DNA from: Verrucomicrobiota bacterium
GTDB taxonomy: Bacteria > Verrucomicrobiota > Verrucomicrobiia > Limisphaerales > AAA164-E04
DNA length: 64,000 nt
NCBI GenBank assembly: GCA_047947115.1
Contig: CP170459.1
Span: 5,536,001 to 5,600,000, forward strand
Direction: 5' to 3'
Shown here: in pieces, positions 1,832 to 11,162 of the stretch
How the letters are laid out: each line of letters opens with the position of its first letter
How positions within the stretch are numbered: position 1 is the first letter of the stretch
The notes under the pieces: model-generated
Told to the model about the DNA's origin: nothing
Database searches by the model: none
What the model saw: the letters and a program-made list of their open reading frames with translations, nothing else
Program-made: the position numbers and the translations under genes

Positions 1832-3148
1832 ATGCAGAATCAGCAGTTGAACACTCGTGCAACCGGCGGTAGGTTTAACGGCGTGAAAGGACTTCAATCA
1901 AGTTTCATACTTGCCCTAAGCATCGCTGCCTCAGTGTCCATTACACTCCATGCATCAGACCCTGAGATGAAAACAAGCGACAAACCACCCGCCAAAAGTA
2001 TTGAAAAAGCCATCCAGGCGAAAGAAGCACTTTTTGCGACTCTCTCCGGCAGACTCAAAGAGGTCATGGCAGCGGATGGCCCGGTGGCTGCCATTGATGT
2101 CTGCAGTAACGAAGCGGCCAGCATAACCCAATCCGTTGGCAACTCGATGGGATTAAAAATTGGACGCACCGCACTAAGACAAAGAAACCCAAAGAATCAA
2201 GCTCCTGAATGGGCCAAACCATTTCTCGAACAAACAACTCAGAAACCCGTGTTTACGAGATTGCCTGACGATCGAACAGGAGCACTGTTCCCAATCAAAC
2301 TCAAAGCGCAATGCCTCATTTGCCATGGAGAATCCATGTTCATTCCCCAAAACGTCCAACAAGCTCTCAAACAAAATTATCCGCAAGACAGGGCAATCGG
2401 TTTCAAGGTAGATGATCTGCGGGGATGGTTCTGGGTAGAAGTTAATGATGAAGACTCACGCCAAACAAAGGACCAAAGCAACACCTGGTTTCAATACGGG
2501 GAGATGCACCGCGTTATCGGACAAAAGGATCACAAAGGCCGCGTGCGTCTTGGAGATTTAACCAAACAGGCCAACATTTATGCTGTCGGAGCGATGGAAG
2601 GATTGCACGGAGAAGTCACCATTCTCGACTCTGTCCCCTATGTAACCACTCGTCATTCAGACAATAACTTGAGTACAAATCCAATCACCACAGATTCAGA
2701 AGCAACGTTGCTGATGGGGGCATCTGTGAGTGCCTGGGAAGACACCCCTTTTGAATCAACTCTTGGGCCGGACAAATGGGAATCCCATCTGGAACAAACC
2801 GCTCGAGCCAATCATCTCGATACCGACTCCCCTATCCTATTTCGGATGAGTGGACATTTCAGGGACACCGCCGTCCATGTCATCAATGGAGCTTGCCCCA
2901 TCCACGCCCAACTCCACGCCGAAGAACTTGCCCCCGATGAAAAACCGCACCAGCAAACCTTCGACACCATTCAGGGCACCATCGTAGGAGTCTTCGCCAA
3001 GGCTTCCAGTGGACGTTTGACTCATCCGGGAACTTCGGTTCATGCCCACCTGATCTACCAGTCGCCTGAAACAGGAGAATGGCTAACGGGACACATCGAG
3101 CAGACGTCTATCATGAAAGGTAGTACTCTGAGTTTGCCGAAACTGTAA
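1832..3148 (+). CDS. Exported fusion: DUF3365-like monoheme c domain + alpha-acetolactate-decarboxylase-like domain
   Basis: Signal-like N-terminus. DUF3365-type motifs GPVAAIDVC, IGRTALRQRNPKN, CLICH, YPQDRAIGFKVDDLRG. C-half has YAVGAMEGLHGEVTILD, HAH and LTGH, like the ALDC metal site. Confidence 0.7.
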   Translation: MQNQQLNTRATGGRFNGVKGLQSSFILALSIAASVSITLHASDPEMKTSDKPPAKSIEKAIQAKEALFATLSGRLKEVMAADGPVAAIDVCSNEAASITQSVGNSMGLKIGRTALRQRNPKNQAPEWAKPFLEQTTQKPVFTRLPDDRTGALFPIKLKAQCLICHGESMFIPQNVQQALKQNYPQDRAIGFKVDDLRGWFWVEVNDEDSRQTKDQSNTWFQYGEMHRVIGQKDHKGRVRLGDLTKQANIYAVGAMEGLHGEVTILDSVPYVTTRHSDNNLSTNPITTDSEATLLMGASVSAWEDTPFESTLGPDKWESHLEQTARANHLDTDSPILFRMSGHFRDTAVHVINGACPIHAQLHAEELAPDEKPHQQTFDTIQGTIVGVFAKASSGRLTHPGTSVHAHLIYQSPETGEWLTGHIEQTSIMKGSTLSLPKL

Positions 3149-3171
3149 TCATTCAGTTGAGAATCGGCAGA

Positions 3172-3897
3172 TCAAAATTCCCCAACCTGCAACTGCATCA
3201 GATCAACTGCCTGCAATTCCTGAAAAAGTGAATGCTCGGAATACATTTCCATGAGCGCTCCCTTCCTTAAACTTTGCATGGTCTGATCACGCCACTCTCG
3301 CTCAGCGGGTGAAAGACGTTTTCCACCTTCGGCTAACACTTCCAAAACCGCGATTTCTTCAGGCAGGGGTTGGTCGGCTATCTGGAGAGTCAACTGATCG
3401 ATTTGCAACTGCAAGCGACGATCCAACTCCTCACGATCAGCATCCGTCAAAGATGCTTCAAACCTATCCAACCGTTCACGCATCAAGTCAATTTTCATCG
3501 ACACTAGATCCCCTTCGCTTACATCATCAAACCCGGATGAAGCGATCGGGGCAGAGTCCTCGGTCATTTCCCAATCAGGCGATTGAGTTTGCGTTGGTAG
3601 TTCCTCCTGTTGTGGGGCTGCTTCGATCAAATGATCCTCCCCGGAGATAACTCCAGGATCCATCGATTGTAACATGTGGATCACTTGACGGTTTATTCTT
3701 GCCTGTTCCACCAGCACATCCTTCACCCTGTTACCAAAAGCCTCCTGCTGCTCGGAGGGCATTTGGAGTGAATAATCGGGAGAGCCAGTCTGAATGGCTC
3801 GCAAATCATTCACCAATCGAAATTGAGAAAAAGCCACAGCAAACAGCGCAGAAAAGGTCATCCAGTGGAAAAAAGTATCAAAAGGTCGATTCTTCAT
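3172..3897 (-). CDS. Membrane-anchored hypothetical protein, tandem paralog 3
   Basis: N-terminal hydrophobic segment. C-terminal LDRFEASLT...EL...LSP...LMEM motif shared with the two upstream genes. Confidence 0.75.
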   Translation of the reverse strand: MKNRPFDTFFHWMTFSALFAVAFSQFRLVNDLRAIQTGSPDYSLQMPSEQQEAFGNRVKDVLVEQARINRQVIHMLQSMDPGVISGEDHLIEAAPQQEELPTQTQSPDWEMTEDSAPIASSGFDDVSEGDLVSMKIDLMRERLDRFEASLTDADREELDRRLQLQIDQLTLQIADQPLPEEIAVLEVLAEGGKRLSPAEREWRDQTMQSLRKGALMEMYSEHSLFQELQAVDLMQLQVGEF

Positions 3898-3918
3898 TAT
3901 TGTCTTAGATCAGTTTGT

Positions 3919-4566
3919 TCATGGGGTCACAAGACCGGTAAAAGCTTCGTGCATTTCGATCAATGAAATGCGTTTAAAATTCTCAAAAATTCCATTTCTC
4001 AGTTTTTGCTGCCTGGGCGTTAGAGTAGACTCCTGAGCCGAAAGAAAAGCCACATCCTCAGGTTGGGGCATCCCAAGTCCTTCAAAGCCAGGAATCGTTC
4101 CGGTTGCAAGTTGTTGAATCCGGGTCTCTACCCGGTATTGCAGCTCTTCCCTGCCTTTTTCGGTCAATGAAGCCTCGAACCGCTTCAATTGTTCATCGAA
4201 TAATAAATCTTCATCAAGTCTGCCTACGTCATTGAAAGGAACAATCCAGGCATCCTCTGCTCTAGCCGGATAACTCTCACGATTATTTGAATCATTACCG
4301 GCTTCGCCTGTTCCATGTTGATGGTAACCATTTCCAGTCTCCTGACCTTGAAATCTACCCCGCACTGCGCCAAGGGTGGAATCAAGCTGACGCTGTTCTG
4401 TCACTAGCGATTCCAACATCGAAAGAACATCTCCTTCCCCGCTCTTCGGTATGGGCCACTCACTGTGATTGCCTCGGAACGACATCTCCTTAAACGAAGA
4501 TGCAGTAAGGTATTGGAACAGAACCAACAGCATAACAAAACCAGTCAAAGTAATTTTATCGTACAT
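3919..4566 (-). CDS. Membrane-anchored hypothetical protein, tandem paralog 2
   Basis: N-terminal hydrophobic segment; EQLKRFEASLT...GTIPGFEGLG...TLTPR...SLIEMH. Confidence 0.78.
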   Translation of the reverse strand: MYDKITLTGFVMLLVLFQYLTASSFKEMSFRGNHSEWPIPKSGEGDVLSMLESLVTEQRQLDSTLGAVRGRFQGQETGNGYHQHGTGEAGNDSNNRESYPARAEDAWIVPFNDVGRLDEDLLFDEQLKRFEASLTEKGREELQYRVETRIQQLATGTIPGFEGLGMPQPEDVAFLSAQESTLTPRQQKLRNGIFENFKRISLIEMHEAFTGLVTP

Positions 4567-4568
4567 TT

Positions 4569-5270
4569 TTATTTCCAGTATGAAAAACGATCTTCAAACA
4601 AGCCGATGTATTCGGCATGCATCTCCATGAGAGATAATTGTTTCGTTCTCCTAAGAATTCGTTCTCTGATCTCTCTTTTCCTTGGAGAAAGTGTTTTCGA
4701 ATCTGCTGTTAACAAGACGCTCCCTTTCCGCTTGCGCTGCCCTATCCCTTCAAAACCAGGAACTGTGCCGTTTTCCAGTTGTTTAAGTTTAAAAGCGATT
4801 CTACTTTCCAATTCGACATGTCCCATATCCGTCAAAGAGGTTTCAAATCGTTTCAGTTGCTCCCGAAAAATCTCCTCATTATTGTAGTCCAGATTCTCAC
4901 TGGTATAATCAGCCCAAAGTCGCTGGTATCGAATAGGAGGCTGAGGGTTGTCGTTCAACACTTTTTCTTTTTGCCAACTATCAGATTGAACCTCAACCTG
5001 TTCATTAGCTCGTTCCACTTTCTCTTGATGGTGGTTAGTATCTGAAAAACAACATTCCAGTGATTCCTGGTGATTGGTGTTTGCCCTTGTGTGTGAGTTC
5101 ATGTCGTCAGAACCAACCAAAAATTCGTTTTCAGCAAGAAAGGTGTTCACACGTGTCGATATGATTGGCAGTCTTGAAATCTGGGAATCAATAAAGCCAA
5201 CAAAAGACAGTGAGAACACCAGAATATACCATATTCCTTTTACGTTCATTGAAAACCTATCTATTCGCAA
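4569..5270 (-). CDS. Membrane-anchored hypothetical protein, tandem paralog 1 (start may be ATG 5249)
   Basis: N-terminal hydrophobic segment; EQLKRFETSLT...GTVPGFEGIG...TLSPR...SLMEMH. Confidence 0.78.
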   Translation of the reverse strand: MRIDRFSMNVKGIWYILVFSLSFVGFIDSQISRLPIISTRVNTFLAENEFLVGSDDMNSHTRANTNHQESLECCFSDTNHHQEKVERANEQVEVQSDSWQKEKVLNDNPQPPIRYQRLWADYTSENLDYNNEEIFREQLKRFETSLTDMGHVELESRIAFKLKQLENGTVPGFEGIGQRKRKGSVLLTADSKTLSPRKREIRERILRRTKQLSLMEMHAEYIGLFEDRFSYWK

Positions 5271-5797
5271 CCTCCATAAAGCATTAGGTAAAACCGTATA
5301 AGAGCATCCGCTTCTTCCCTTGCCTTTCTCATACTGTTCTCACGACGATTGTGGCAATCTTGGATGTCAAGCTCCCAATCAGCTCGACACCACGCTCCAC
5401 AATCCGCGGGATCAAAATCAACCACACACGGTAGCAGGCACCAGGCCAGTGACGAATTGGCGGAAGCAACGCAGGTAGCTTGAAAGGCATAAGCGCTGAC
5501 CAATTTGAGTCTCAAAGCAATGCAGAGTTGGGAGTATTCGGATTGGAATCGATTGTAATCCGTGTTGGCGTTGCTGGGTTCGACCAAATTGGAGGCATAC
5601 CAAAAATCATCGGACCACCCGCCAGCACCCGAACTGAAATATCGCCCACTGATGGTTTGACACGCGTAATAAGGAACTTCGCCCGCCCCTGGCGCCGGCG
5701 CGGGGGGAGGAGGATTATCTGCCGATTGGGAACCTGCGGAATGGGTAATCAGCATGGCTGACAGAATGGTGCAGCATTTCTTAACAAGATGATTCAT
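5261..5797 (-). CDS. Small secreted Cys-rich protein
   Basis: ATG 5797 (MNHLVKKCCTILSAMLITHSAGS, signal-like), Pro-rich linker, 9 Cys in the mature part. First gene of a tightly packed four-gene run. Confidence 0.7.
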   Translation of the reverse strand: MNHLVKKCCTILSAMLITHSAGSQSADNPPPPAPAPGAGEVPYYACQTISGRYFSSGAGGWSDDFWYASNLVEPSNANTDYNRFQSEYSQLCIALRLKLVSAYAFQATCVASANSSLAWCLLPCVVDFDPADCGAWCRADWELDIQDCHNRRENSMRKAREEADALIRFYLMLYGGCE

Positions 5798-6228
5798 CGT
5801 ATTCGTACAAATAAGATTTAGATTTGTGATTTTATTAAGCACAGTCCGCTCTTATGAATAAGGCGCACTGGAAACTCATCCGAAGAGATGACACTGATGG
5901 AGGAACAGACACTTGCCACCACCTCTTTCGAGTGAGTTGAAAGACAAACGAAACCAGCCTTTCAAATGAAGCGGACACACAATTCGTTCAACTTTATGGA
6001 AAAGTCAACTCAAAAAAGGATATTTAATTAACTTTTTATTTTACACATCTACCTCCTATCCAACATAAAGCGTAATATGTCGCATTTTAATACCTAATGT
6101 CGTTTTTCAAGATAACATATCGCACTTTAAGCCAGGAAAAGGCTTCATTAAAAAAACCAACAAAGAGTTTCCCGCCACACCTCCGCCACGCAGGTAGGCG
6201 ATCCAATCAACCTGACGATCTACCATCA

Positions 6229-6418
6229 GGCAGGACGTACCGTCCCCGACGCGTCACCTTGTGGCACATGATATCTCGAAGATCTCCGTTTCGGGAAAAC
6301 ATCAGCATTCGAAAGCCTCTACTCCGAACCGCAGGCCTTTGAGTTCAAATCAAGATCCTGATTAAACCCACGGCGCCAAACAGGTAGCATGTCCGTCCCC
6401 GACGCGCCCTTATGGCAT
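6229..6418. repeat. Two degenerate copies of a GC-rich intergenic (REP-like) repeat
   Basis: Exact 14-mer ccgtccccgacgcg at 6240-6253 and 6393-6406, each followed by a similar cct-t(g/a)tggca tail. Confidence 0.55.
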
Positions 6419-6558
6419 CCAAACTGGCCATTGTTTTAAAAGGGAAAAACCAACTGCATCCAACACCCAACAATCGCATCGTTGAAGCTCCCGTATGAGT
6501 CTGGATCCACTCACCCGCAAACACTCTACCAGCGATGCAATAAGCCTCATTCAATAGC

Positions 6559-9120
6559 TTGTCAGGGGTTTCTTATTCGTACATATTCGTAAGCATGGTT
6601 CACCGCATTAATATCAACTACTTTGCCGCATGCTCACGCATGTTTGCGGTGTTCGGCGTTTTGACTGGCCTGTGTGCTCACTCCTGGCCAGTCTTTGGAG
6701 ATCAAGCAAAGGAAGAGAACGTTTCGGATCACTCCAATGCATTGGTACCCATTCCTCAAACTCTGCAATTGAAAGTTGGGGACACTTGGAGACGATTTCT
6801 TGTTACCGACCAAACGGAGGACGGATTTCATCTGGACCTTTCCGATCAATATGGTCTGACCAGTCAGCAACCGGATATCTTTCATTTCGAAAACGGGAAA
6901 TGGATCGCCAAACATCCCGGTACAGCCTCGCTCACCTTACAGGACGACCGTGGAAATTTACTTGGTGAGATTCATGTGGAAGTATCAGAAGGAACCGAAA
7001 TGCCGTCGCCCCCAAACTTCGTCGACCACATTCAGCCCATCCTCACCAAAGTCGGTTGCAACAATGGAGCATGTCATGCAAAACCTGGCGGCCGCAACGG
7101 CTTCGAATTGTCCGTTTTCGGCTACGCCCCGGAAATCGATCATCGGGAAATCGTACAGGACAACCTTGGCCGACGCATCTTCCCGGCCAGCCCAGAAAAC
7201 AGTCTGCTGCTGCTAAAAGCAACGGGTGCAGTCAAACATGAAGGAGGCTCGCCGCTGGTCAAAGATTCTGAATTCTATCAAACCCTTGTCACCTGGATTG
7301 AATCGGGCATGCCCTACGAAAACAAAGATGCCCCCAAACTGAACCACATCGAAGTGGCTCCGGCAGGAGGGAGGCTGCAAAAAGGCAGCTCATTCATCCA
7401 TGCCGTCTGGGCGCATTATGATGATGGCTCCATCCGGGATGTCACCCACTTGGCTGAATATCAAAGCACGGACAAGGAACTACTCGAGATCGACCACCAC
7501 GGGCAGGCCACCACCCATCATCGCGACGGCCAAGTCGTCGTCGTAACGCGATTTTCCGGATTGATCGCAGAAAGCCGATGGATGATCCCGCGCGACGACA
7601 ACAGCTCCGTTTCCGATCCAAATGACGCAAACATCCAGCCAAACAATTTCATCGACACACACGCCTTCGCTTATTTAAAGGAATTGGGGTATCGTCCATC
7701 CGGATTGTGTTCTGACAGCGAATTCATTCGACGATCCTCACTCGACGCAACAGGCGTGCTGCCCACTCCCGAAGAAGCAAGAACCTTTCTGGAGGATCCT
7801 TCACCTGACAAACGGCAAAAGTGGATTCAACAACTGATGAAGCATCGCTGGATCGGAGATTACTGGGCCAACCAATGGACCGATCTTCTCCGCCCCAACC
7901 CTGATCGTGCAGGCATCAAGAGCGTTTATATGTTTGACCAATGGGTCAGAGAGTGTTTTCGGTCCAACATGCCATACGACCAGTTCGTAAGATCCATCCT
8001 CACGCTAGAAGGCAGCAATCACCAGGCAGGACCAGCATCGATCTATCGCGACAAACGCACCCCCGAAGACCTCACGGTATTATTCAGCCAACTGTTCCTC
8101 GGCGTGCGGCTCGAATGCGCCAAGTGTCACCACCATCCGTTCGAAAAATGGGGACAGGAAGACTTTTACCAGACAGCGGCCTTTTTTGGTTCGATAAAGC
8201 AAAAAGGAGCCGGAGTGTCCCCTCCCATCTCCGCTGGAACCGAAACATTTTATTTCCGAAAAGGTGGCAGCGTCCAGCACCCGCGCACCGAAGAAGTCAT
8301 GCATCCGGCTCCCCCCGGAGGCAACCATTCAACGATCGAAGAAGGCATCGACCCCAGAGGTTCCTGGATGGATTGGATGTTGGATCCGGAGAATCCATAT
8401 TTTGCCCAATCCATCGTGAATCGTGTATGGAACGTTTTCTTTGGAAAAGGATTCGTCAATCCAGTCGACGATTTTCGCACCAGCAATCCTCCGGTGCATG
8501 AACCACTCATGCAGGCCTTGGCCAGGGATTTCGTGGACCATGGTTACGACCTGCGCCACCTCATGTCCACGATCATGGCCTCAAGACTCTACCAGTCCAG
8601 CTCCAACCCGAACGAGACGAACCTCACGGACACACGTTATTTTTCACGTTACTATCGCAAGCGCCTGCCAGCCGAATTACTGCAGGACGCAGTCACCGAC
8701 GTGACGGAAATCGAAGCATCCTTTGATGGGCTTCCACCGGGATCCAGGGCGATCGAAACCTGGAATTTCAAAATAGAATCACAGTTCATGGACGCCTTCG
8801 ACCGACCAAACTCCAGCAGCGACCCTCCCTGCGAGCGCATCAACAAACCCAGCGTCGTGCAATCGCTCCACATGATGCACTCAGAAGGACTGCAATCGAA
8901 ACTCCAATCCGACAAAGGCTGGCTGGAAGCGCTGGTGCGCAGTGGACTGAAGCATTCGGACATGATTGACGCTGTATACTTGAAGATTTTCAGTCGCTAT
9001 CCAGATGCAGACGAAAGAGACATTGCAGAAAAGACCATTTCGGGAGAGAATCAACGCCAAGGACTGGAAGATTTGGTTTGGGCACTATTGAATTCGGCGG
9101 AATTCATTTTCAACCATTGA
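6559..9120 (+). CDS. DUF1549/DUF1553 (PSD1/PSCyt) protein with Ig-like domains and cytochrome c-type motifs (true start probably ATG further downstream)
   Basis: GCNNGACH, NNFID, EFIRRSSLDATGVLPT, QLFLGVRLECAKCHHHPFEKW, NPYFAQSIVNRVW..FFGKG...PVDD, EDLVWALLNSAEFIFNH. Confidence 0.92.
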   Translation: MSGVSYSYIFVSMVHRININYFAACSRMFAVFGVLTGLCAHSWPVFGDQAKEENVSDHSNALVPIPQTLQLKVGDTWRRFLVTDQTEDGFHLDLSDQYGLTSQQPDIFHFENGKWIAKHPGTASLTLQDDRGNLLGEIHVEVSEGTEMPSPPNFVDHIQPILTKVGCNNGACHAKPGGRNGFELSVFGYAPEIDHREIVQDNLGRRIFPASPENSLLLLKATGAVKHEGGSPLVKDSEFYQTLVTWIESGMPYENKDAPKLNHIEVAPAGGRLQKGSSFIHAVWAHYDDGSIRDVTHLAEYQSTDKELLEIDHHGQATTHHRDGQVVVVTRFSGLIAESRWMIPRDDNSSVSDPNDANIQPNNFIDTHAFAYLKELGYRPSGLCSDSEFIRRSSLDATGVLPTPEEARTFLEDPSPDKRQKWIQQLMKHRWIGDYWANQWTDLLRPNPDRAGIKSVYMFDQWVRECFRSNMPYDQFVRSILTLEGSNHQAGPASIYRDKRTPEDLTVLFSQLFLGVRLECAKCHHHPFEKWGQEDFYQTAAFFGSIKQKGAGVSPPISAGTETFYFRKGGSVQHPRTEEVMHPAPPGGNHSTIEEGIDPRGSWMDWMLDPENPYFAQSIVNRVWNVFFGKGFVNPVDDFRTSNPPVHEPLMQALARDFVDHGYDLRHLMSTIMASRLYQSSSNPNETNLTDTRYFSRYYRKRLPAELLQDAVTDVTEIEASFDGLPPGSRAIETWNFKIESQFMDAFDRPNSSSDPPCERINKPSVVQSLHMMHSEGLQSKLQSDKGWLEALVRSGLKHSDMIDAVYLKIFSRYPDADERDIAEKTISGENQRQGLEDLVWALLNSAEFIFNH

Positions 9121-9133
9121 GATCAATAACAAC

Positions 9134-10465
9134 ATGAGTCGAACAACCATCAATTGCGAAGGCATGACCCGCAGAGACTTCCTTCAAGTCGGACTGGGCG
9201 GAACCCTGGGGCTGGGGATGTGTGACCTGCTGAGAATGCAAGCGGACGCCAAGGCAAACGGAAAGCCCGGATCAGACATACGTTGCATCTTGGTCTGGCT
9301 GGATGGAGGCCCTTCGCACTATGAAACTTTCGATCCCAAACCGGATGCACCTGAGGACATTCGTGGAGAATTCAAAACCATCCCCACCTCAACCCCCGGA
9401 GTTCATTTCAGTGAAGTGGTGCCCAATCTGGCCAAAGTGATGGATAAATCCACCGTCATCCGATCCATTTGTCACAAGGATCCAAACCACGGCGGTGGCA
9501 ATCATTACATGATGACCGGAGCACCTACCCCGGTGCCGGTGGCGTGCGGCGCTTTTGTCACGTTTCATCCGAGCTTCGGTTCAATGGTTTCCTATGACCG
9601 CGGTATTCGAGGAGGATTACCCGCCTACATGAGTCTTCCGCGTGTTTCACGATCGGGCGGCCCGAACTTTTTGGGGGGCCAACACGCCCCGTTTGTCATC
9701 GACGGCGATCCGAACAACAAAAATTTTCGGGTCCGCGATGTCGTGCTGCCAAAGTCCATCAGTGAAGAACGCGCCGAAAACAGACGCGCACTCCGCAAAG
9801 CGCTGGACCGTCTGCAACGCATGCAGGACCCCCTGGCCAACGACCCGACGGTCACTTTCGATCAATTTTACGAACAAGGCGTGGATCTGGTTACCTCCCC
9901 GCAGGCACAAAAGGCTTTCGACATCCACCAGGAACCCGAAGCAGTCAGGGAGAAATACGGCCAGAATGATTTGGGACAACGCCTGCTGATGGCACGACGA
10001 TTGACCGAGGTCGGCGTGTCCTTTGTCACGGTTTATTACGGGGGATGGGACAATCACACCAATTTATTCGAACGATTCAAAGGCTCGTTCATGGGGAAAC
10101 TGGACCAAGGTTTGGCAGCTTTAATCGCCGACCTGCACGAACGTGGATCAGCCGAAAACACCATGGTCATTTGCCTGGGTGAATTTGGTCGCACACCGAA
10201 AGTGAACAAGGACGCAGGTCGTGACCACTGGCCGCACGCCATGTCGGTGATCATGTCCGGAGCGGGCATCCCGGGAGGCCAAATCGTGGGAGCCACCGAT
10301 GCCAAAGGGTTTTATGCCTCGGACAATGTGCATAGCCCGGAAGACTTCGCGGCATCGCTTTACACAAAAATGGGCATCGATCCGCACCAAACTCTCTACC
10401 AAGCCACCGGCCGACCTGTTCGCCTGGTCAACGGTGGAGAACCCATCAAAGAACTATTTGCCTGA
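9134..10465 (+). CDS. DUF1501 domain protein (Tat-exported)
   Basis: TRRDFLQ twin-Arg motif; WLDGGPSHYETFDPKP, GEFGRTPKVN, GRDHWP. Confidence 0.93.
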   Translation: MSRTTINCEGMTRRDFLQVGLGGTLGLGMCDLLRMQADAKANGKPGSDIRCILVWLDGGPSHYETFDPKPDAPEDIRGEFKTIPTSTPGVHFSEVVPNLAKVMDKSTVIRSICHKDPNHGGGNHYMMTGAPTPVPVACGAFVTFHPSFGSMVSYDRGIRGGLPAYMSLPRVSRSGGPNFLGGQHAPFVIDGDPNNKNFRVRDVVLPKSISEERAENRRALRKALDRLQRMQDPLANDPTVTFDQFYEQGVDLVTSPQAQKAFDIHQEPEAVREKYGQNDLGQRLLMARRLTEVGVSFVTVYYGGWDNHTNLFERFKGSFMGKLDQGLAALIADLHERGSAENTMVICLGEFGRTPKVNKDAGRDHWPHAMSVIMSGAGIPGGQIVGATDAKGFYASDNVHSPEDFAASLYTKMGIDPHQTLYQATGRPVRLVNGGEPIKELFA

Positions 10466-10580
10466 GTAGCCGCAGCCGCCAGAAGGTGGTTTCTCGAATG
10501 CCCGAGATGATGTAGGAACACTGTCGCAAGGGTACGGCAGGGTATCACATGTTTGCAAATGCGGCTGCCTGGGGTATTGT

Positions 10581-11072
10581 TCAGTCACTCAGAAAGAAAC
10601 CATCGGACGAACTCTTTCTAGCCCGGTAACGCTGCAGGAAGGAGGAGTTTTTGCCGGAAGGGTTCGTGCTGGAAGAACGCAAGTCGCGCCTCAGTTGACG
10701 TTGATTCTTTTTATTCTCGGCCAAAATGTTGCGTTGATGCTTTTCGATCGCCTTCTGGGACTCCTTGGTTTGGCGCAATAATTCTTCGCGCTTTTCCTCG
10801 GCCTCCTTCAGATTTTTTTTCTGCTGCTTTCGAAGCTCGCGCTCGGCATCACGACGTTCCTTTTCCACTTCCTTCAAGGTTTTCCCGGCAGGCTTTTCAG
10901 ATTGCTGCACGGATTGCGAAGCCTCCTTGACCACCGTTTCCTCCTTACCACGCTTTTTCCAAAACTTCCACCACTGAGCCTCGGCCTGTGGGCAACCCAT
11001 CGCAGTGCCTACCAGAAGGCAGGCGGTCAGCAGTAGGAATCTGCATCGAAAATAGGTAGATTTTGAAAACAT
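10581..11072 (-). CDS. Secreted basic coiled-coil hypothetical protein
   Basis: Signal peptide ending AEA-Q, then WWKFWKK and a K/E/R-rich helix. Confidence 0.65.
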   Translation of the reverse strand: MFSKSTYFRCRFLLLTACLLVGTAMGCPQAEAQWWKFWKKRGKEETVVKEASQSVQQSEKPAGKTLKEVEKERRDAERELRKQQKKNLKEAEEKREELLRQTKESQKAIEKHQRNILAENKKNQRQLRRDLRSSSTNPSGKNSSFLQRYRARKSSSDGFFLSD

Positions 11073-11085
11073 AGGCAGTAAAAAA

Positions 11086-11162
11086 TGGTGGGCCCAGAGG
11101 GACTTGAACCCCCGACCCAGCGATTATGAGTCGCTTGCTCTAACCAACTGAGCTATGGGCCC
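11086..11162 (-). tRNA. tRNA with CAT anticodon, most likely tRNA-Ile2 (lysidine type)
   Basis: Reverse complement GGGCCCATAGCTCAGTTGGTTAGAGCAAGCGACTCATAATCGCTGGGTCGGGGGTTCAAGTCCCTCTGGGCCCACCA: cloverleaf, encoded CCA, anticodon arm resembling E. coli tRNA-Ile2. Confidence 0.93.

What the first reader, a model, noticed from the sequence alone, without database searches (positions are those of the whole stretch)
3172..5797. Orphan four-gene operon: secreted Cys-rich protein followed by three diverged paralogs of an unknown membrane-anchored domain
Seen: four closely packed minus-strand genes in an AT-richer stretch. The last three each have an N-terminal hydrophobic anchor, a variable linker and a shared C-terminal domain of about 80 aa (L(K/D)RFE(A/T)SLT...EL..R...(I/L).QL...L(S/T)P....R.......L(M/I)EM); two also share GT(I/V)PGFEG(L/I)G. 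I recognise no family. Inference: one secreted effector or ligand plus an array of diverged cognate partners, as in toxin/poly-immunity or ligand/receptor cassettes, or a dedicated chaperone set.
Basis: partly seen in the sequence, partly recalled or inferred. Interest (0 to 1): 0.72.

Follow-up and report, generated by a model that had tools for sequence, protein, structure and literature searches.

The report
Orphan operon of four exported proteins
A few estuarine Verrucomicrobiota carry a conserved four-gene operon, also found in RNA libraries, for one cysteine-rich protein and three old paralogs with no detectable relatives; all four are predicted to be exported and likely act together in the cell envelope, but their function is untested.

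Summary
Window 3172-5797 (minus strand) carries four tightly packed genes. One encodes a 178-aa protein with a signal peptide and nine invariant mature-part cysteines. The other three are true paralogs (BLASTP E 1e-23 to 5e-8). Each has an N-terminal hydrophobic segment, a variable acidic linker and a roughly 100-aa three-helix C-domain.

All four genes are under purifying selection (dN/dS 0.11-0.43). Contigs of four metatranscriptome runs cover them. Gene order is the same in the one other species genome that has the cassette.

Pfam, NCBIfam, PADLOC, PHROGs, PDB sequences, Foldseek and VIA-align give no significant match. The paralog family has 16 clusters among 5.8 billion proteins and 12 of 1.84 billion representatives. 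The Cys-rich family has 5 clusters.

The three paralogs are separate, conserved orthogroups, and the Cys-rich core is nearly invariant. This argues against a variable toxin/poly-immunity array. The paralogs have no cytoplasmic domain, which argues against receptors.

My best reading (about 0.35) is one fixed extracytoplasmic complex. In it, three tethered helical heads would bind each other and/or a hairpin protein predicted to be disulfide-stapled. The families are new, the clade is narrow and the function is open, so interest is moderate.

The parts
5261..5797 (-). Gene for the 178-aa Cys-rich protein. It has a signal-peptide-like N-terminus (residues 1-24), a Pro-rich spacer, a nearly invariant core (43-137) and a variable helical tail. 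Nine mature-part Cys are invariant, with the symmetric spacing C109-x10-C120-x3-C124-x8-C133-x3-C137-x10-C148.
   Evidence: ORF. Alignment of 6 sequences. Conservation and Cys spacing. dN/dS 0.20 against G007. No family match. The AF2 model is poor (pLDDT 47.9) but all-helical.
4569..5249 (-). Paralog C (226 aa from the ATG; an alternative TTG at 5270 would overlap the upstream stop). It has a hydrophobic N-terminus, a disordered linker and a three-helix C-domain with the GTVPGFEGIG loop.
   Evidence: AF2 model: helices 120-138, 141-160 and 189-215 at pLDDT about 82-93 per 10-residue block, linker below 50. dN/dS 0.43. Orthologues start at the same ATG.
3919..4566 (-). Paralog B (215 aa): same architecture, C-domain with the GTIPGFEGLG loop.
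   Evidence: dN/dS 0.11. Orthogroup support 100/99.
3172..3897 (-). Paralog A (241 aa): same architecture, but it lacks the PGFEG loop and has a C-terminal extension. Its linker (residues 36-135) is hypervariable between species.
   Evidence: Against G007: linker 40% aa identity, N-terminus 97%, C-domain 91%. Orthogroup support 99/98.
5798..5953 (-). Likely 5' leader of the operon transcript.
   Evidence: A contig of RNA run X15 spans 4720-5953 and ends there. What follows is a loose end that I recognise from memory as sequencing adapter (tables 7 and 8). This is one run only and is an inference.

Best explanation
This conserved operon, also covered by RNA-library contigs, encodes four proteins of two families without detectable relatives, all predicted to be exported, which likely form one fixed cell-envelope complex. 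Shown directly: the four genes are real and evolve under purifying selection. Three are ancient paralogs kept as separate orthogroups. The gene order Cys-rich, C, B, A is conserved in all four-gene contexts seen. Nothing known matches. Inferred: (1) each paralog is held at, or released from, the inner membrane by its N-terminal hydrophobic segment. An acidic, disordered linker of 60-100 residues would then project a three-helix head into the periplasm. (2) The Cys-rich protein would fold in the oxidising periplasm into a long helical hairpin stapled by three nested disulfides (C124-C133, C120-C137, C109-C148). That leaves C46, C92 and C177 for one more bond plus one free or intermolecular cysteine. 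(3) The three heads share invariant charged residues (R, E, E, R, E in RFExSL...EL..R...L.EM). They would use this common surface to bind one another and/or the hairpin protein in a fixed 1:1:1:1 set. What the complex does (structural tether, surface display or envelope maintenance) is unknown.
For: Real genes: dN/dS against G007 is 0.20, 0.43, 0.11 and 0.23 for Cys-rich, C, B and A. RNA libraries: contigs of 4 of 4 RNA runs laid cover parts of the cassette. Contigs bridge all three gene junctions (X15 records 6 and 5, X17 record 21). RNA contigs of the neighbouring gene begin at 6608-6626 in all 4 runs with no loose end there, while DNA contigs X1 and X2 run through. This is a weak hint that the material is RNA. 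Fixed set: there are exactly 3 paralog copies and 1 Cys-rich copy in the complete own genome and 3 paralog copies in G007. The order of all four genes is the same in G007 and in 4 metagenome loci of that same lineage. A C-type gene follows the Cys-rich gene in the divergent L028. Old, non-redundant paralogs: groups A, B and C are each one side of a branch (99/98, 100/99, 80/83). Shared surface: the invariant columns R134, F135, S138, L139, E146, L147, R150 and M210 hold across 19 sequences. Architecture: a confident three-helix C-domain behind a low-confidence linker. Hairpin: symmetric Cys spacing 10-3-8-3-10 with all six Cys invariant, and AF2 puts them on two consecutive helices, 107-126 and 130-174. 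Export: all four have N-terminal hydrophobic runs of 11-16 residues after a basic start. No cytoplasmic domain precedes them.
Against: The Cys-rich model is too poor (pLDDT 47.9) to check disulfide geometry. The parts do not evolve as one unit between G000 and G007: Cys-rich, C and B are 95-97% identical (dS 0.04-0.13), whereas A is 70.5% identical (dS 0.90). Gene context is unknown for the more distant family members (P0023, P0024, P0026-P0028), so the link to a Cys-rich gene rests on one genus-level clade. Co-transcribed exported proteins need not bind each other. Sec export, cleavage and topology are inferred from hydrophobicity alone.
Confidence: 0.35

Rival explanations
1. Secreted toxin or bacteriocin plus immunity proteins. 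The Cys-rich protein would be an exported, disulfide-stabilised toxin, and the three periplasm-facing paralogs would protect the producer.
For: A small Cys-rich exported protein gene is followed by small genes with hydrophobic N-termini. Distribution is very narrow and patchy: 2 of 8 genomes of the genus. The Cys-rich/C/B segment is 96-99% identical between two species whose flanks are about 88% identical, as after a recent exchange. GC is slightly low.
Against: The supposed toxin is nearly invariant in its core (80 of 95 columns) rather than polymorphic. The supposed immunity genes are a fixed triplet of old orthogroups, not a variable array. No toxin, secretion, processing or defence family matches. 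No transporter or maturation gene lies in the operon. Neither family was found in viral contigs.
Confidence: 0.17
2. Dedicated periplasmic chaperones or maturation factors. The three helical proteins would help the nine-cysteine protein fold or stay soluble, working like Spy/CpxP or the eukaryotic RAP.
For: The heads are small, Cys-free, charged helical domains placed next to a client-like Cys-rich gene. LT/SP-type helix starts loosely recall LTXXQ motifs (my recollection of that motif). RAP chains appear among weak matches (2ftu E 0.39; 2p01 E 2.6).
Against: Searches of the own genome with LTXXQ (PF07813) and Metal_resist (PF13801) at E up to 10 do not hit the cassette, though they find other loci. 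hhalign against the genome's own LTXXQ protein gives probability 1.2%. The Q of the motif is not conserved among the paralogs. The RAP matches are at noise level. Three non-redundant chaperones for one 15-kDa client would be unusual.
Confidence: 0.12
3. Co-transcribed but independent exported proteins, for example lineage-specific surface or matrix proteins, with no specific contact between the Cys-rich protein and the paralogs.
For: Divergence between G000 and G007 is unequal along the operon. There is no evidence of binding. Long disordered acidic linkers are common in surface proteins (general knowledge).
Against: The order and copy number of all four genes are conserved in every four-gene context seen. 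Gene spacing is tight at 2-21 nt. Charged residues are invariant across all three paralog groups, which suggests a common ligand.
Confidence: 0.2
4. Ligand plus membrane receptors that signal into the cell.
For: One secreted protein gene is followed by three genes with possible membrane anchors.
Against: At most about 12 residues precede the hydrophobic segment, so there is no cytoplasmic signalling domain. No regulator, kinase or sigma factor gene is adjacent.
Confidence: 0.03

Closest known systems
HP0242 of Helicobacter pylori (Pfam DUF1104) and the knotted proteins designed from it (PDB 3mlg, 7sq3)
   Same: A small all-helical domain. The helix motif 'SLTD.GREELE.RI..KI.QL' aligns with 'LSDEQRRELEEKIKFKLAEL' of 7sq3. 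This entry or its parent design tops three independent but weak searches: PDB sequence profile E 0.094, Foldseek E 1.8, and VIA-align Z 4.8, rmsd 6.2 over 88 residues. HP0242 is an intertwined homodimer (abstract of PMC5159899, seen in the listing), which fits an oligomerising head.
   Different: All scores are at noise level for helical proteins. A DUF1104 profile search of the own genome at E up to 10 does not hit the cassette. HP0242 has no known function, so a match would explain little.
CpxP/Spy/ZraP periplasmic chaperones (Pfam LTXXQ PF07813, Metal_resist PF13801)
   Same: Exported, Cys-free, small helical domains behind an N-terminal hydrophobic segment. The genome's own LTXXQ protein (L013:1177-1770) has that layout.
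   Different: No profile match. hhalign probability is 1.2%. The LTXXQ glutamine is not conserved. No such chain appears in the fold lists, which is inconclusive.
Toxin/immunity and bacteriocin/immunity cassettes
   Same: A gene for a small exported protein is followed by several small genes with hydrophobic N-termini. Distribution is narrow and patchy, with signs of recent exchange between species.
   Different: The partners are a fixed triplet of old orthogroups and the Cys-rich protein is nearly invariant. No known toxin, immunity, secretion or processing domain is present.
TonB/TolA-type periplasm-spanning tethers (comparison from general knowledge)
   Same: An N-terminal membrane segment, a long low-complexity spacer and a small C-terminal interaction domain.
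   Different: No sequence or fold match. No ExbBD/TolQR-like genes are adjacent. The spacer is acidic rather than Pro-rich or Lys-rich.
Twin-CX3C helical hairpins (small Tim proteins, plant alpha-hairpinins; recalled, not fetched)
   Same: A C-x3-C ... C-x3-C pattern on two consecutive predicted helices.
   Different: The protein is bacterial and about 150 aa when mature. It has a third, outer Cys pair at x10 spacing and three further Cys. No Pfam match of any kind was found at E up to 1.

Membership tests
LTXXQ / CpxP-Spy (PF07813) | Match to the family profile at or near its cut-off | tested here: not met
   hmmscan of the three paralogs against Pfam at E up to 1 gives no LTXXQ hit. The PF07813 search of the own genome at E up to 10 lists 6 places, none in the cassette.
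LTXXQ / CpxP-Spy (PF07813) | Conserved LTXXQ motifs | tested here: not met
   The candidate sites read LTDAD / LTEKG / LTDMG and LSPAE / LTPRQ / LSPRK. The Q is present in one paralog at one site only.
LTXXQ / CpxP-Spy (PF07813) | Profile-profile similarity to a bona fide member | tested here: not met
   hhalign of A3 against the genome's own LTXXQ protein: probability 1.2%, 42 columns. The query profile is shallow (Neff 3.2).
Metal_resist (PF13801) | Match to the family profile | tested here: not met
   The own-genome search at E up to 10 gives 4 places, none in the cassette.
DUF1104 / HP0242 (PF06518) | Match to the family profile | tested here: not met
   The own-genome search at E up to 10 gives 1 place, not in the cassette. 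There is no Pfam hit.
DUF1104 / HP0242 (PF06518) | Shared fold (intertwined helical dimer) | tested here: inconclusive
   3mlg_B is the top VIA-align row but only at Z 4.8, rmsd 6.2, 88 aligned. 7sq3 is the top Foldseek row at E 1.8. The monomer model cannot show intertwining.
Polymorphic toxin / immunity cassette | Recognisable toxin, immunity, or secretion-linked domain | tested here: not met
   No Pfam, NCBIfam, PADLOC or PHROGs family at meaningful E for any of the four proteins.
Polymorphic toxin / immunity cassette | Variable toxin tip and variable number of immunity paralogs between strains | tested here: not met
   Three copies in each of the 2 genomes that have the family. The three groups are separate orthogroups. 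The Cys-rich core is invariant in 80 of 95 columns, and only the last 41 residues vary.
Polymorphic toxin / immunity cassette | Toxicity of the first product and protection by a partner | not testable with these tools
   This needs expression assays.
Twin-CX3C helical hairpin | C-x3-C ... C-x3-C on two antiparallel helices | tested here: met
   C120-x3-C124-x8-C133-x3-C137, all invariant. They sit on predicted helices 107-126 and 130-174 (low confidence).
Twin-CX3C helical hairpin | Nested disulfide pairing | not testable with these tools
   The model (pLDDT 47.9) is too poor and no coordinates are returned. This needs disulfide mapping.
RAP (alpha-2-macroglobulin receptor-associated protein) | Sequence or fold match to a RAP domain | tested here: inconclusive
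   Only noise-level rows: 2ftu E 0.39, 2p01 E 2.6 and 8jxh E 7.6.

The most novel reading that the evidence does not exclude
The cassette builds a previously unknown envelope module. Three anciently split, membrane-tethered paralogs would intertwine their helical heads, as HP0242 does, around a triple-disulfide-stapled hairpin protein. Most of the module (the Cys-rich, C and B genes) has recently been exchanged between species, while the stalk of the third paralog diversifies.
Probability: 0.2. Interest if true: 0.6.

Novelty: categorically new. Interest (0 to 1): 0.4.

Why it matters
Both protein families have no detectable relative in any curated library, in solved structures, or outside 12-16 clusters of billions of predicted proteins. 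Yet they are conserved, under selection and present in estuarine RNA libraries. If the four proteins form one complex, it would be a new envelope component of free-living Verrucomicrobiota, a phylum whose envelope is poorly known. It would also be a natural example of a helical hairpin stapled by three nested disulfides. The caveats are real. Orphan exported-protein operons are common in such genomes, the clade is very small, and no function can yet be assigned. 'New' here means new families, not a demonstrated new mechanism.

Tried and rejected
1. Co-folding was not available. Complex prediction, set up with the three C-domains plus the mature Cys-rich protein, was never accepted, so there is no result of any kind on binding.
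2. The AF2 model of the Cys-rich protein (6-sequence alignment) reached only pLDDT 47.9. I did not use it for fold searches.
3. Fold searches with the paralog C model found nothing usable. Foldseek against PDB had 0 matches at E <= 0.001. Foldseek against BFVD had 0 at E <= 0.001. VIA-align against 48,161 chains had 0 at Z >= 5.
4. ESM Atlas gave no usable hit for the Cys-rich protein or the paralog B head.
5. The PDB profile search with the Cys-rich alignment returned only antibody heavy chains at E 0.017-0.9 over a YYAC...W stretch. I read this as chance.
6. The LTXXQ/Spy idea came from my recollection of the motif. It was tested and dropped.
7. Three of the 8 metagenome loci found with the Cys-rich alignment (L029-L031, 27-35% identity) lie antisense inside a 486-aa ORF that I recognise, from memory and without a scan, as IMP dehydrogenase. 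They are artefacts of the GWSDDFW search pattern.
8. Two weak paralog-profile hits were treated as spurious from their score and frame alone and were not inspected further. G013 scored E 0.00875 in a 965-aa frame. G111 scored E 7.7e-4 in a 949-aa frame, matching linker positions 34-118.
9. The promoter and terminator scan found 3 and 3 sites, against 4.5 and 3.7 expected from shuffles, so it adds no information. Rfam gave nothing (one hit at E 0.95).
10. I tried to define an insertion site by synteny with G006. The neighbours of the G006 orthologue lie 0.6-0.9 Mb away in G000, so the region is rearranged and no clean boundary can be drawn.
11. RNA contigs leave 6001-6400 almost uncovered. A part without cover is not evidence by itself.
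12. Viral contigs held no relative of either family. The 19-row alignment A7 was too diverse for that tool.
13. The literature search 'Verrucomicrobi + cysteine-rich + secreted + paralog' listed 9 papers, none on such a cassette by title or abstract start. I ran no other search for prior description.
Full report
WHAT IS THERE

The window is G000:C1:5536001-5600000 of a complete 6.08-Mb single-contig genome. The one other species genome with the cassette (G007, also fetched as L023) is titled by its record as an uncultured Verrucomicrobiota MAG.

Four ORFs lie head to tail on the minus strand:
- Cys-rich, 5261-5797, 178 aa from the ATG.
- Paralog C, 4569-5249, 226 aa from the ATG. A TTG at 5270 would overlap the upstream stop.
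- Paralog B, 3919-4566, 215 aa.
- Paralog A, 3172-3897, 241 aa.

The gaps between them are 11, 2 and 21 nt. The flanks are a convergent Tll0287-like/acetolactate-decarboxylase-like fusion gene (1832-3148) and a divergent PSCyt2/PSD1 gene followed by a DUF1501 gene (6559-10465). GC is 0.463 for the cassette against 0.499 for the window, which puts it in the lowest 5.5% of same-size windows. This is due mainly to paralog C at 0.411.

THE PARALOGY IS REAL

BLASTP gives 1e-23 for B/C, 7e-11 for A/B and 5e-8 for A/C, all over the C-terminal 90-113 residues.

With 19 family members aligned, R134, F135, S138, L139, E146, L147, R150 and M210 (paralog C numbering) remain invariant. E136, L207 and E209 are at 90% or more.

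A short helix with a conserved EQ..L motif follows the hydrophobic N-terminus. The proteins are therefore homologous along their whole length, with a fast-evolving middle.

AF2 with a 13-sequence alignment gives an N-terminal helix (3-26), a linker below pLDDT 50, and a C-domain of helices 120-138, 141-160 and 189-215 at pLDDT about 82-93 per 10-residue block.

The N-terminal uncharged runs are 13-16 residues, and the best 19-residue hydropathy is 1.1-1.7. 'Membrane-anchored' is therefore not settled, and cleaved signal peptides are equally possible. Linkers are acidic (pI 4.1-5.0). The heads differ in charge (pI 8.9, 4.8 and 4.4 for C, B and A).

THE CYS-RICH PROTEIN

It has a signal-peptide-like start, a PPPPAPAP spacer and a core (residues 43-137) that is invariant in 80 of 95 columns across 6 sequences that are 73-95% identical overall. 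The last 41 residues keep only 11 invariant columns.

Nine mature-part cysteines are invariant. Six of them are spaced symmetrically: C109-x10-C120-x3-C124-x8-C133-x3-C137-x10-C148. AF2 places them on two consecutive helices (low confidence).

I infer a helical hairpin stapled by three nested disulfides. C46, C92 and C177 would be left over, so one cysteine is unpaired or intermolecular. This is inference from the sequence and has not been shown.

THE GENES ARE USED

Against G007, dN/dS is 0.20 (Cys-rich), 0.43 (C), 0.11 (B) and 0.23 (A). The flanking PSCyt2/PSD1 gene is at 0.07 (my Nei-Gojobori script).

The stretch was found in 20 run rows from 14 studies of estuary, seawater, marsh and lagoon metagenomes. 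Six of those rows are RNA libraries.

Contigs of 4 of 4 RNA runs laid cover parts of the cassette. RNA-run contigs bridge all three gene junctions: X15 record 6 (4720-5953), X15 record 5 (4360-4668) and X17 record 21 (2894-4066).

RNA contigs of the neighbouring gene start at 6608-6626 in all four runs, with no loose end there. DNA contigs X1 (2501-7500) and X2 (4368-6692) run through the same place. By the tool's own standard this is a weak hint that the material is transcript rather than carried-over DNA. Contigs cannot prove a single transcript.

DISTRIBUTION

The own genome has exactly three paralog copies and one Cys-rich copy.

In whole genomes:
- Family level: 3 of 22 genomes ring at E <= 0.01. 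These are G000, G007 (three matches, same genus) and one weak hit in G013 that I regard as spurious. Within the genus, 2 of 8 have the cassette.
- Order sample, searched with a broader 19-row profile: 3 of 401. These are G000, G007 and one weak linker-only hit in G111.
- Phylum sample: 1 of 401, which is G000 itself.

In protein collections:
- Among 5.8 billion protein clusters, the paralog profile finds 14 clusters of 197-2000 aa, out of 7,995 candidates scored, and 2 fragments of 55-196 aa.
- The Cys-rich protein finds 5 clusters out of 65 candidates.
- An exhaustive HMMER profile search of 1.84 billion representatives finds 12 proteins at E <= 0.001. A few are more distant members with the same layout: P0023, P0024, P0026 and P0028.
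- Viral contigs hold neither family.

Gene context:
- The order Cys-rich, C, B, A with the same flanks is found in G007 and in four metagenome loci. Those loci are the same lineage as G007 and are not independent.
- In L028, where the Cys-rich protein is 71% identical, a C-type gene starts 8 nt after the Cys-rich stop, and then the contig ends.
- Equal 'longest contig' lengths hint that P0013 (A) sits with P0017 (Cys-rich), and P0002 (C) with P0012 (A). This is inference only.
- I could not read the context of the distant members.

KNOWN FAMILIES

- Pfam, NCBIfam, PADLOC and PHROGs give nothing meaningful for any of the four proteins at E up to 1.
- PDB sequence profiles have a best E of 0.054-0.094 for the paralogs and return antibody noise for the Cys-rich protein.
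- Foldseek against PDB and BFVD has no match at E <= 0.001. VIA-align against 48,161 chains has none at Z >= 5.
- The same weak top hit recurs in three searches: the knotted proteins designed from H. pylori HP0242. That protein is an intertwined helical homodimer (abstract of PMC5159899 in the listing). However, its Pfam family (DUF1104) does not ring at the cassette.
- The 'TLTPRQQ' stretch reminded me of LTXXQ chaperones. The test failed: no profile hit, hhalign probability 1.2% against the genome's own LTXXQ protein, and the Q is not conserved.

EVOLUTIONARY PATTERN

In a maximum-likelihood tree of the C-domains (19 rows, none dropped), groups A, B and C are each one side of a branch, with support 99/98, 100/99 and 80/83. 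P0024 and P0027 join A on long branches, so that placement is unsure. P0026 and P0028 fall outside. The triplication therefore predates the lineages that carry it, and each copy has been kept.

Between G000 and G007, divergence is a mosaic:
- 4200-5700 is 96-99% identical at the DNA level. Flanks are about 81-96% in 150-nt bins (BLAST 86-89% overall). The paralog A linker (3451-3750) is 57-61% identical with no gaps.
- dS is 0.04-0.13 for Cys-rich, C and B, 0.50 for the flank and 0.90 for A.
- Within A, the N-terminus and head are 97% and 91% identical, and the linker is 40%.

This looks like a recent exchange or sweep of the Cys-rich/C/B segment, plus a rapidly diversifying or swapped stalk in A.

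HOW IT MOST LIKELY WORKS

The data suggest one multi-subunit extracytoplasmic assembly rather than a toxin with a variable immunity array. The relevant points are:
- a fixed set of four genes;
- three old, non-redundant paralogs that share invariant charged residues;
- no cytoplasmic domains;
- a nearly invariant Cys-rich partner.

I put this reading at about 0.35. The steps 'exported', 'disulfide-stapled hairpin' and 'they bind' are all inferred.

The rivals are independent exported proteins (0.20), toxin/immunity (0.17), dedicated chaperones (0.12) and ligand/receptor (0.03). The remainder is for something not considered here. The unequal divergence of paralog A against the rest counts against a tightly co-evolving complex.

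LIMITS

- Co-folding could not be run.
- The Cys-rich fold is unresolved.
- Contexts of the distant homologues could not be fetched.
- The RNA evidence comes from assembled contigs only.
- One literature search found no description of such a cassette. That is thin evidence of absence from print.

VERDICT

This is a real, conserved operon that is probably expressed. It encodes two protein families with no detectable relatives and is confined to a very small estuarine Verrucomicrobiota clade. It is new at the family level, its function is open, and its interest is moderate.

Noticed in passing
window 3172-6000 compared with L012 (G007:C75:9000-24000): Divergence between the two species is a mosaic. 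4200-5700 is 96-99% identical, flanks are about 88%, and the paralog A linker (3451-3750) is 57-61% identical with no indels. dS runs from 0.04 to 0.90 within one operon. This suggests a recent inter-species exchange or sweep of part of the cassette. In the truncated variant table (40 of 100 rows shown), only 3 listed sites fall in 3172-5797, against 16 in 2627-3171 and 21 in 5856-7194.
   Followed up: partly
window 6239-6406: A 14-nt direct repeat (CCGTCCCCGACGCG at 6240 and 6393) brackets a 153-bp stretch that one DNA contig (X9) skips. G007 also has indels here. This is a repeat-mediated deletion polymorphism in the intergenic region upstream of the operon.
   Followed up: partly
window 1832-3148 (+): A 438-aa fusion of a Tll0287-like domain and an alpha-acetolactate-decarboxylase-like domain. 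Among 5 genus genomes searched it was found only in G007, the same genome that has the cassette. The two may therefore belong to one variable region.
   Followed up: partly
window 6559-11162: The PSCyt2/PSD1 and DUF1501 gene pair is covered by single RNA-run contigs of about 4.5 kb (6626-11162) in X15 and X17. These contigs end at a tRNA-Met gene (11086-11162, minus strand), where many contigs show loose ends.
   Followed up: no
L013:1177-2083 (G000:C1, about 3.95 Mb): The genome's own LTXXQ-family protein (197 aa, N-terminal membrane segment, Gly/Pro-rich tail) sits directly downstream of a 103-aa ORF with a single hydrophobic segment. This may be an envelope-stress pair.
   Followed up: no
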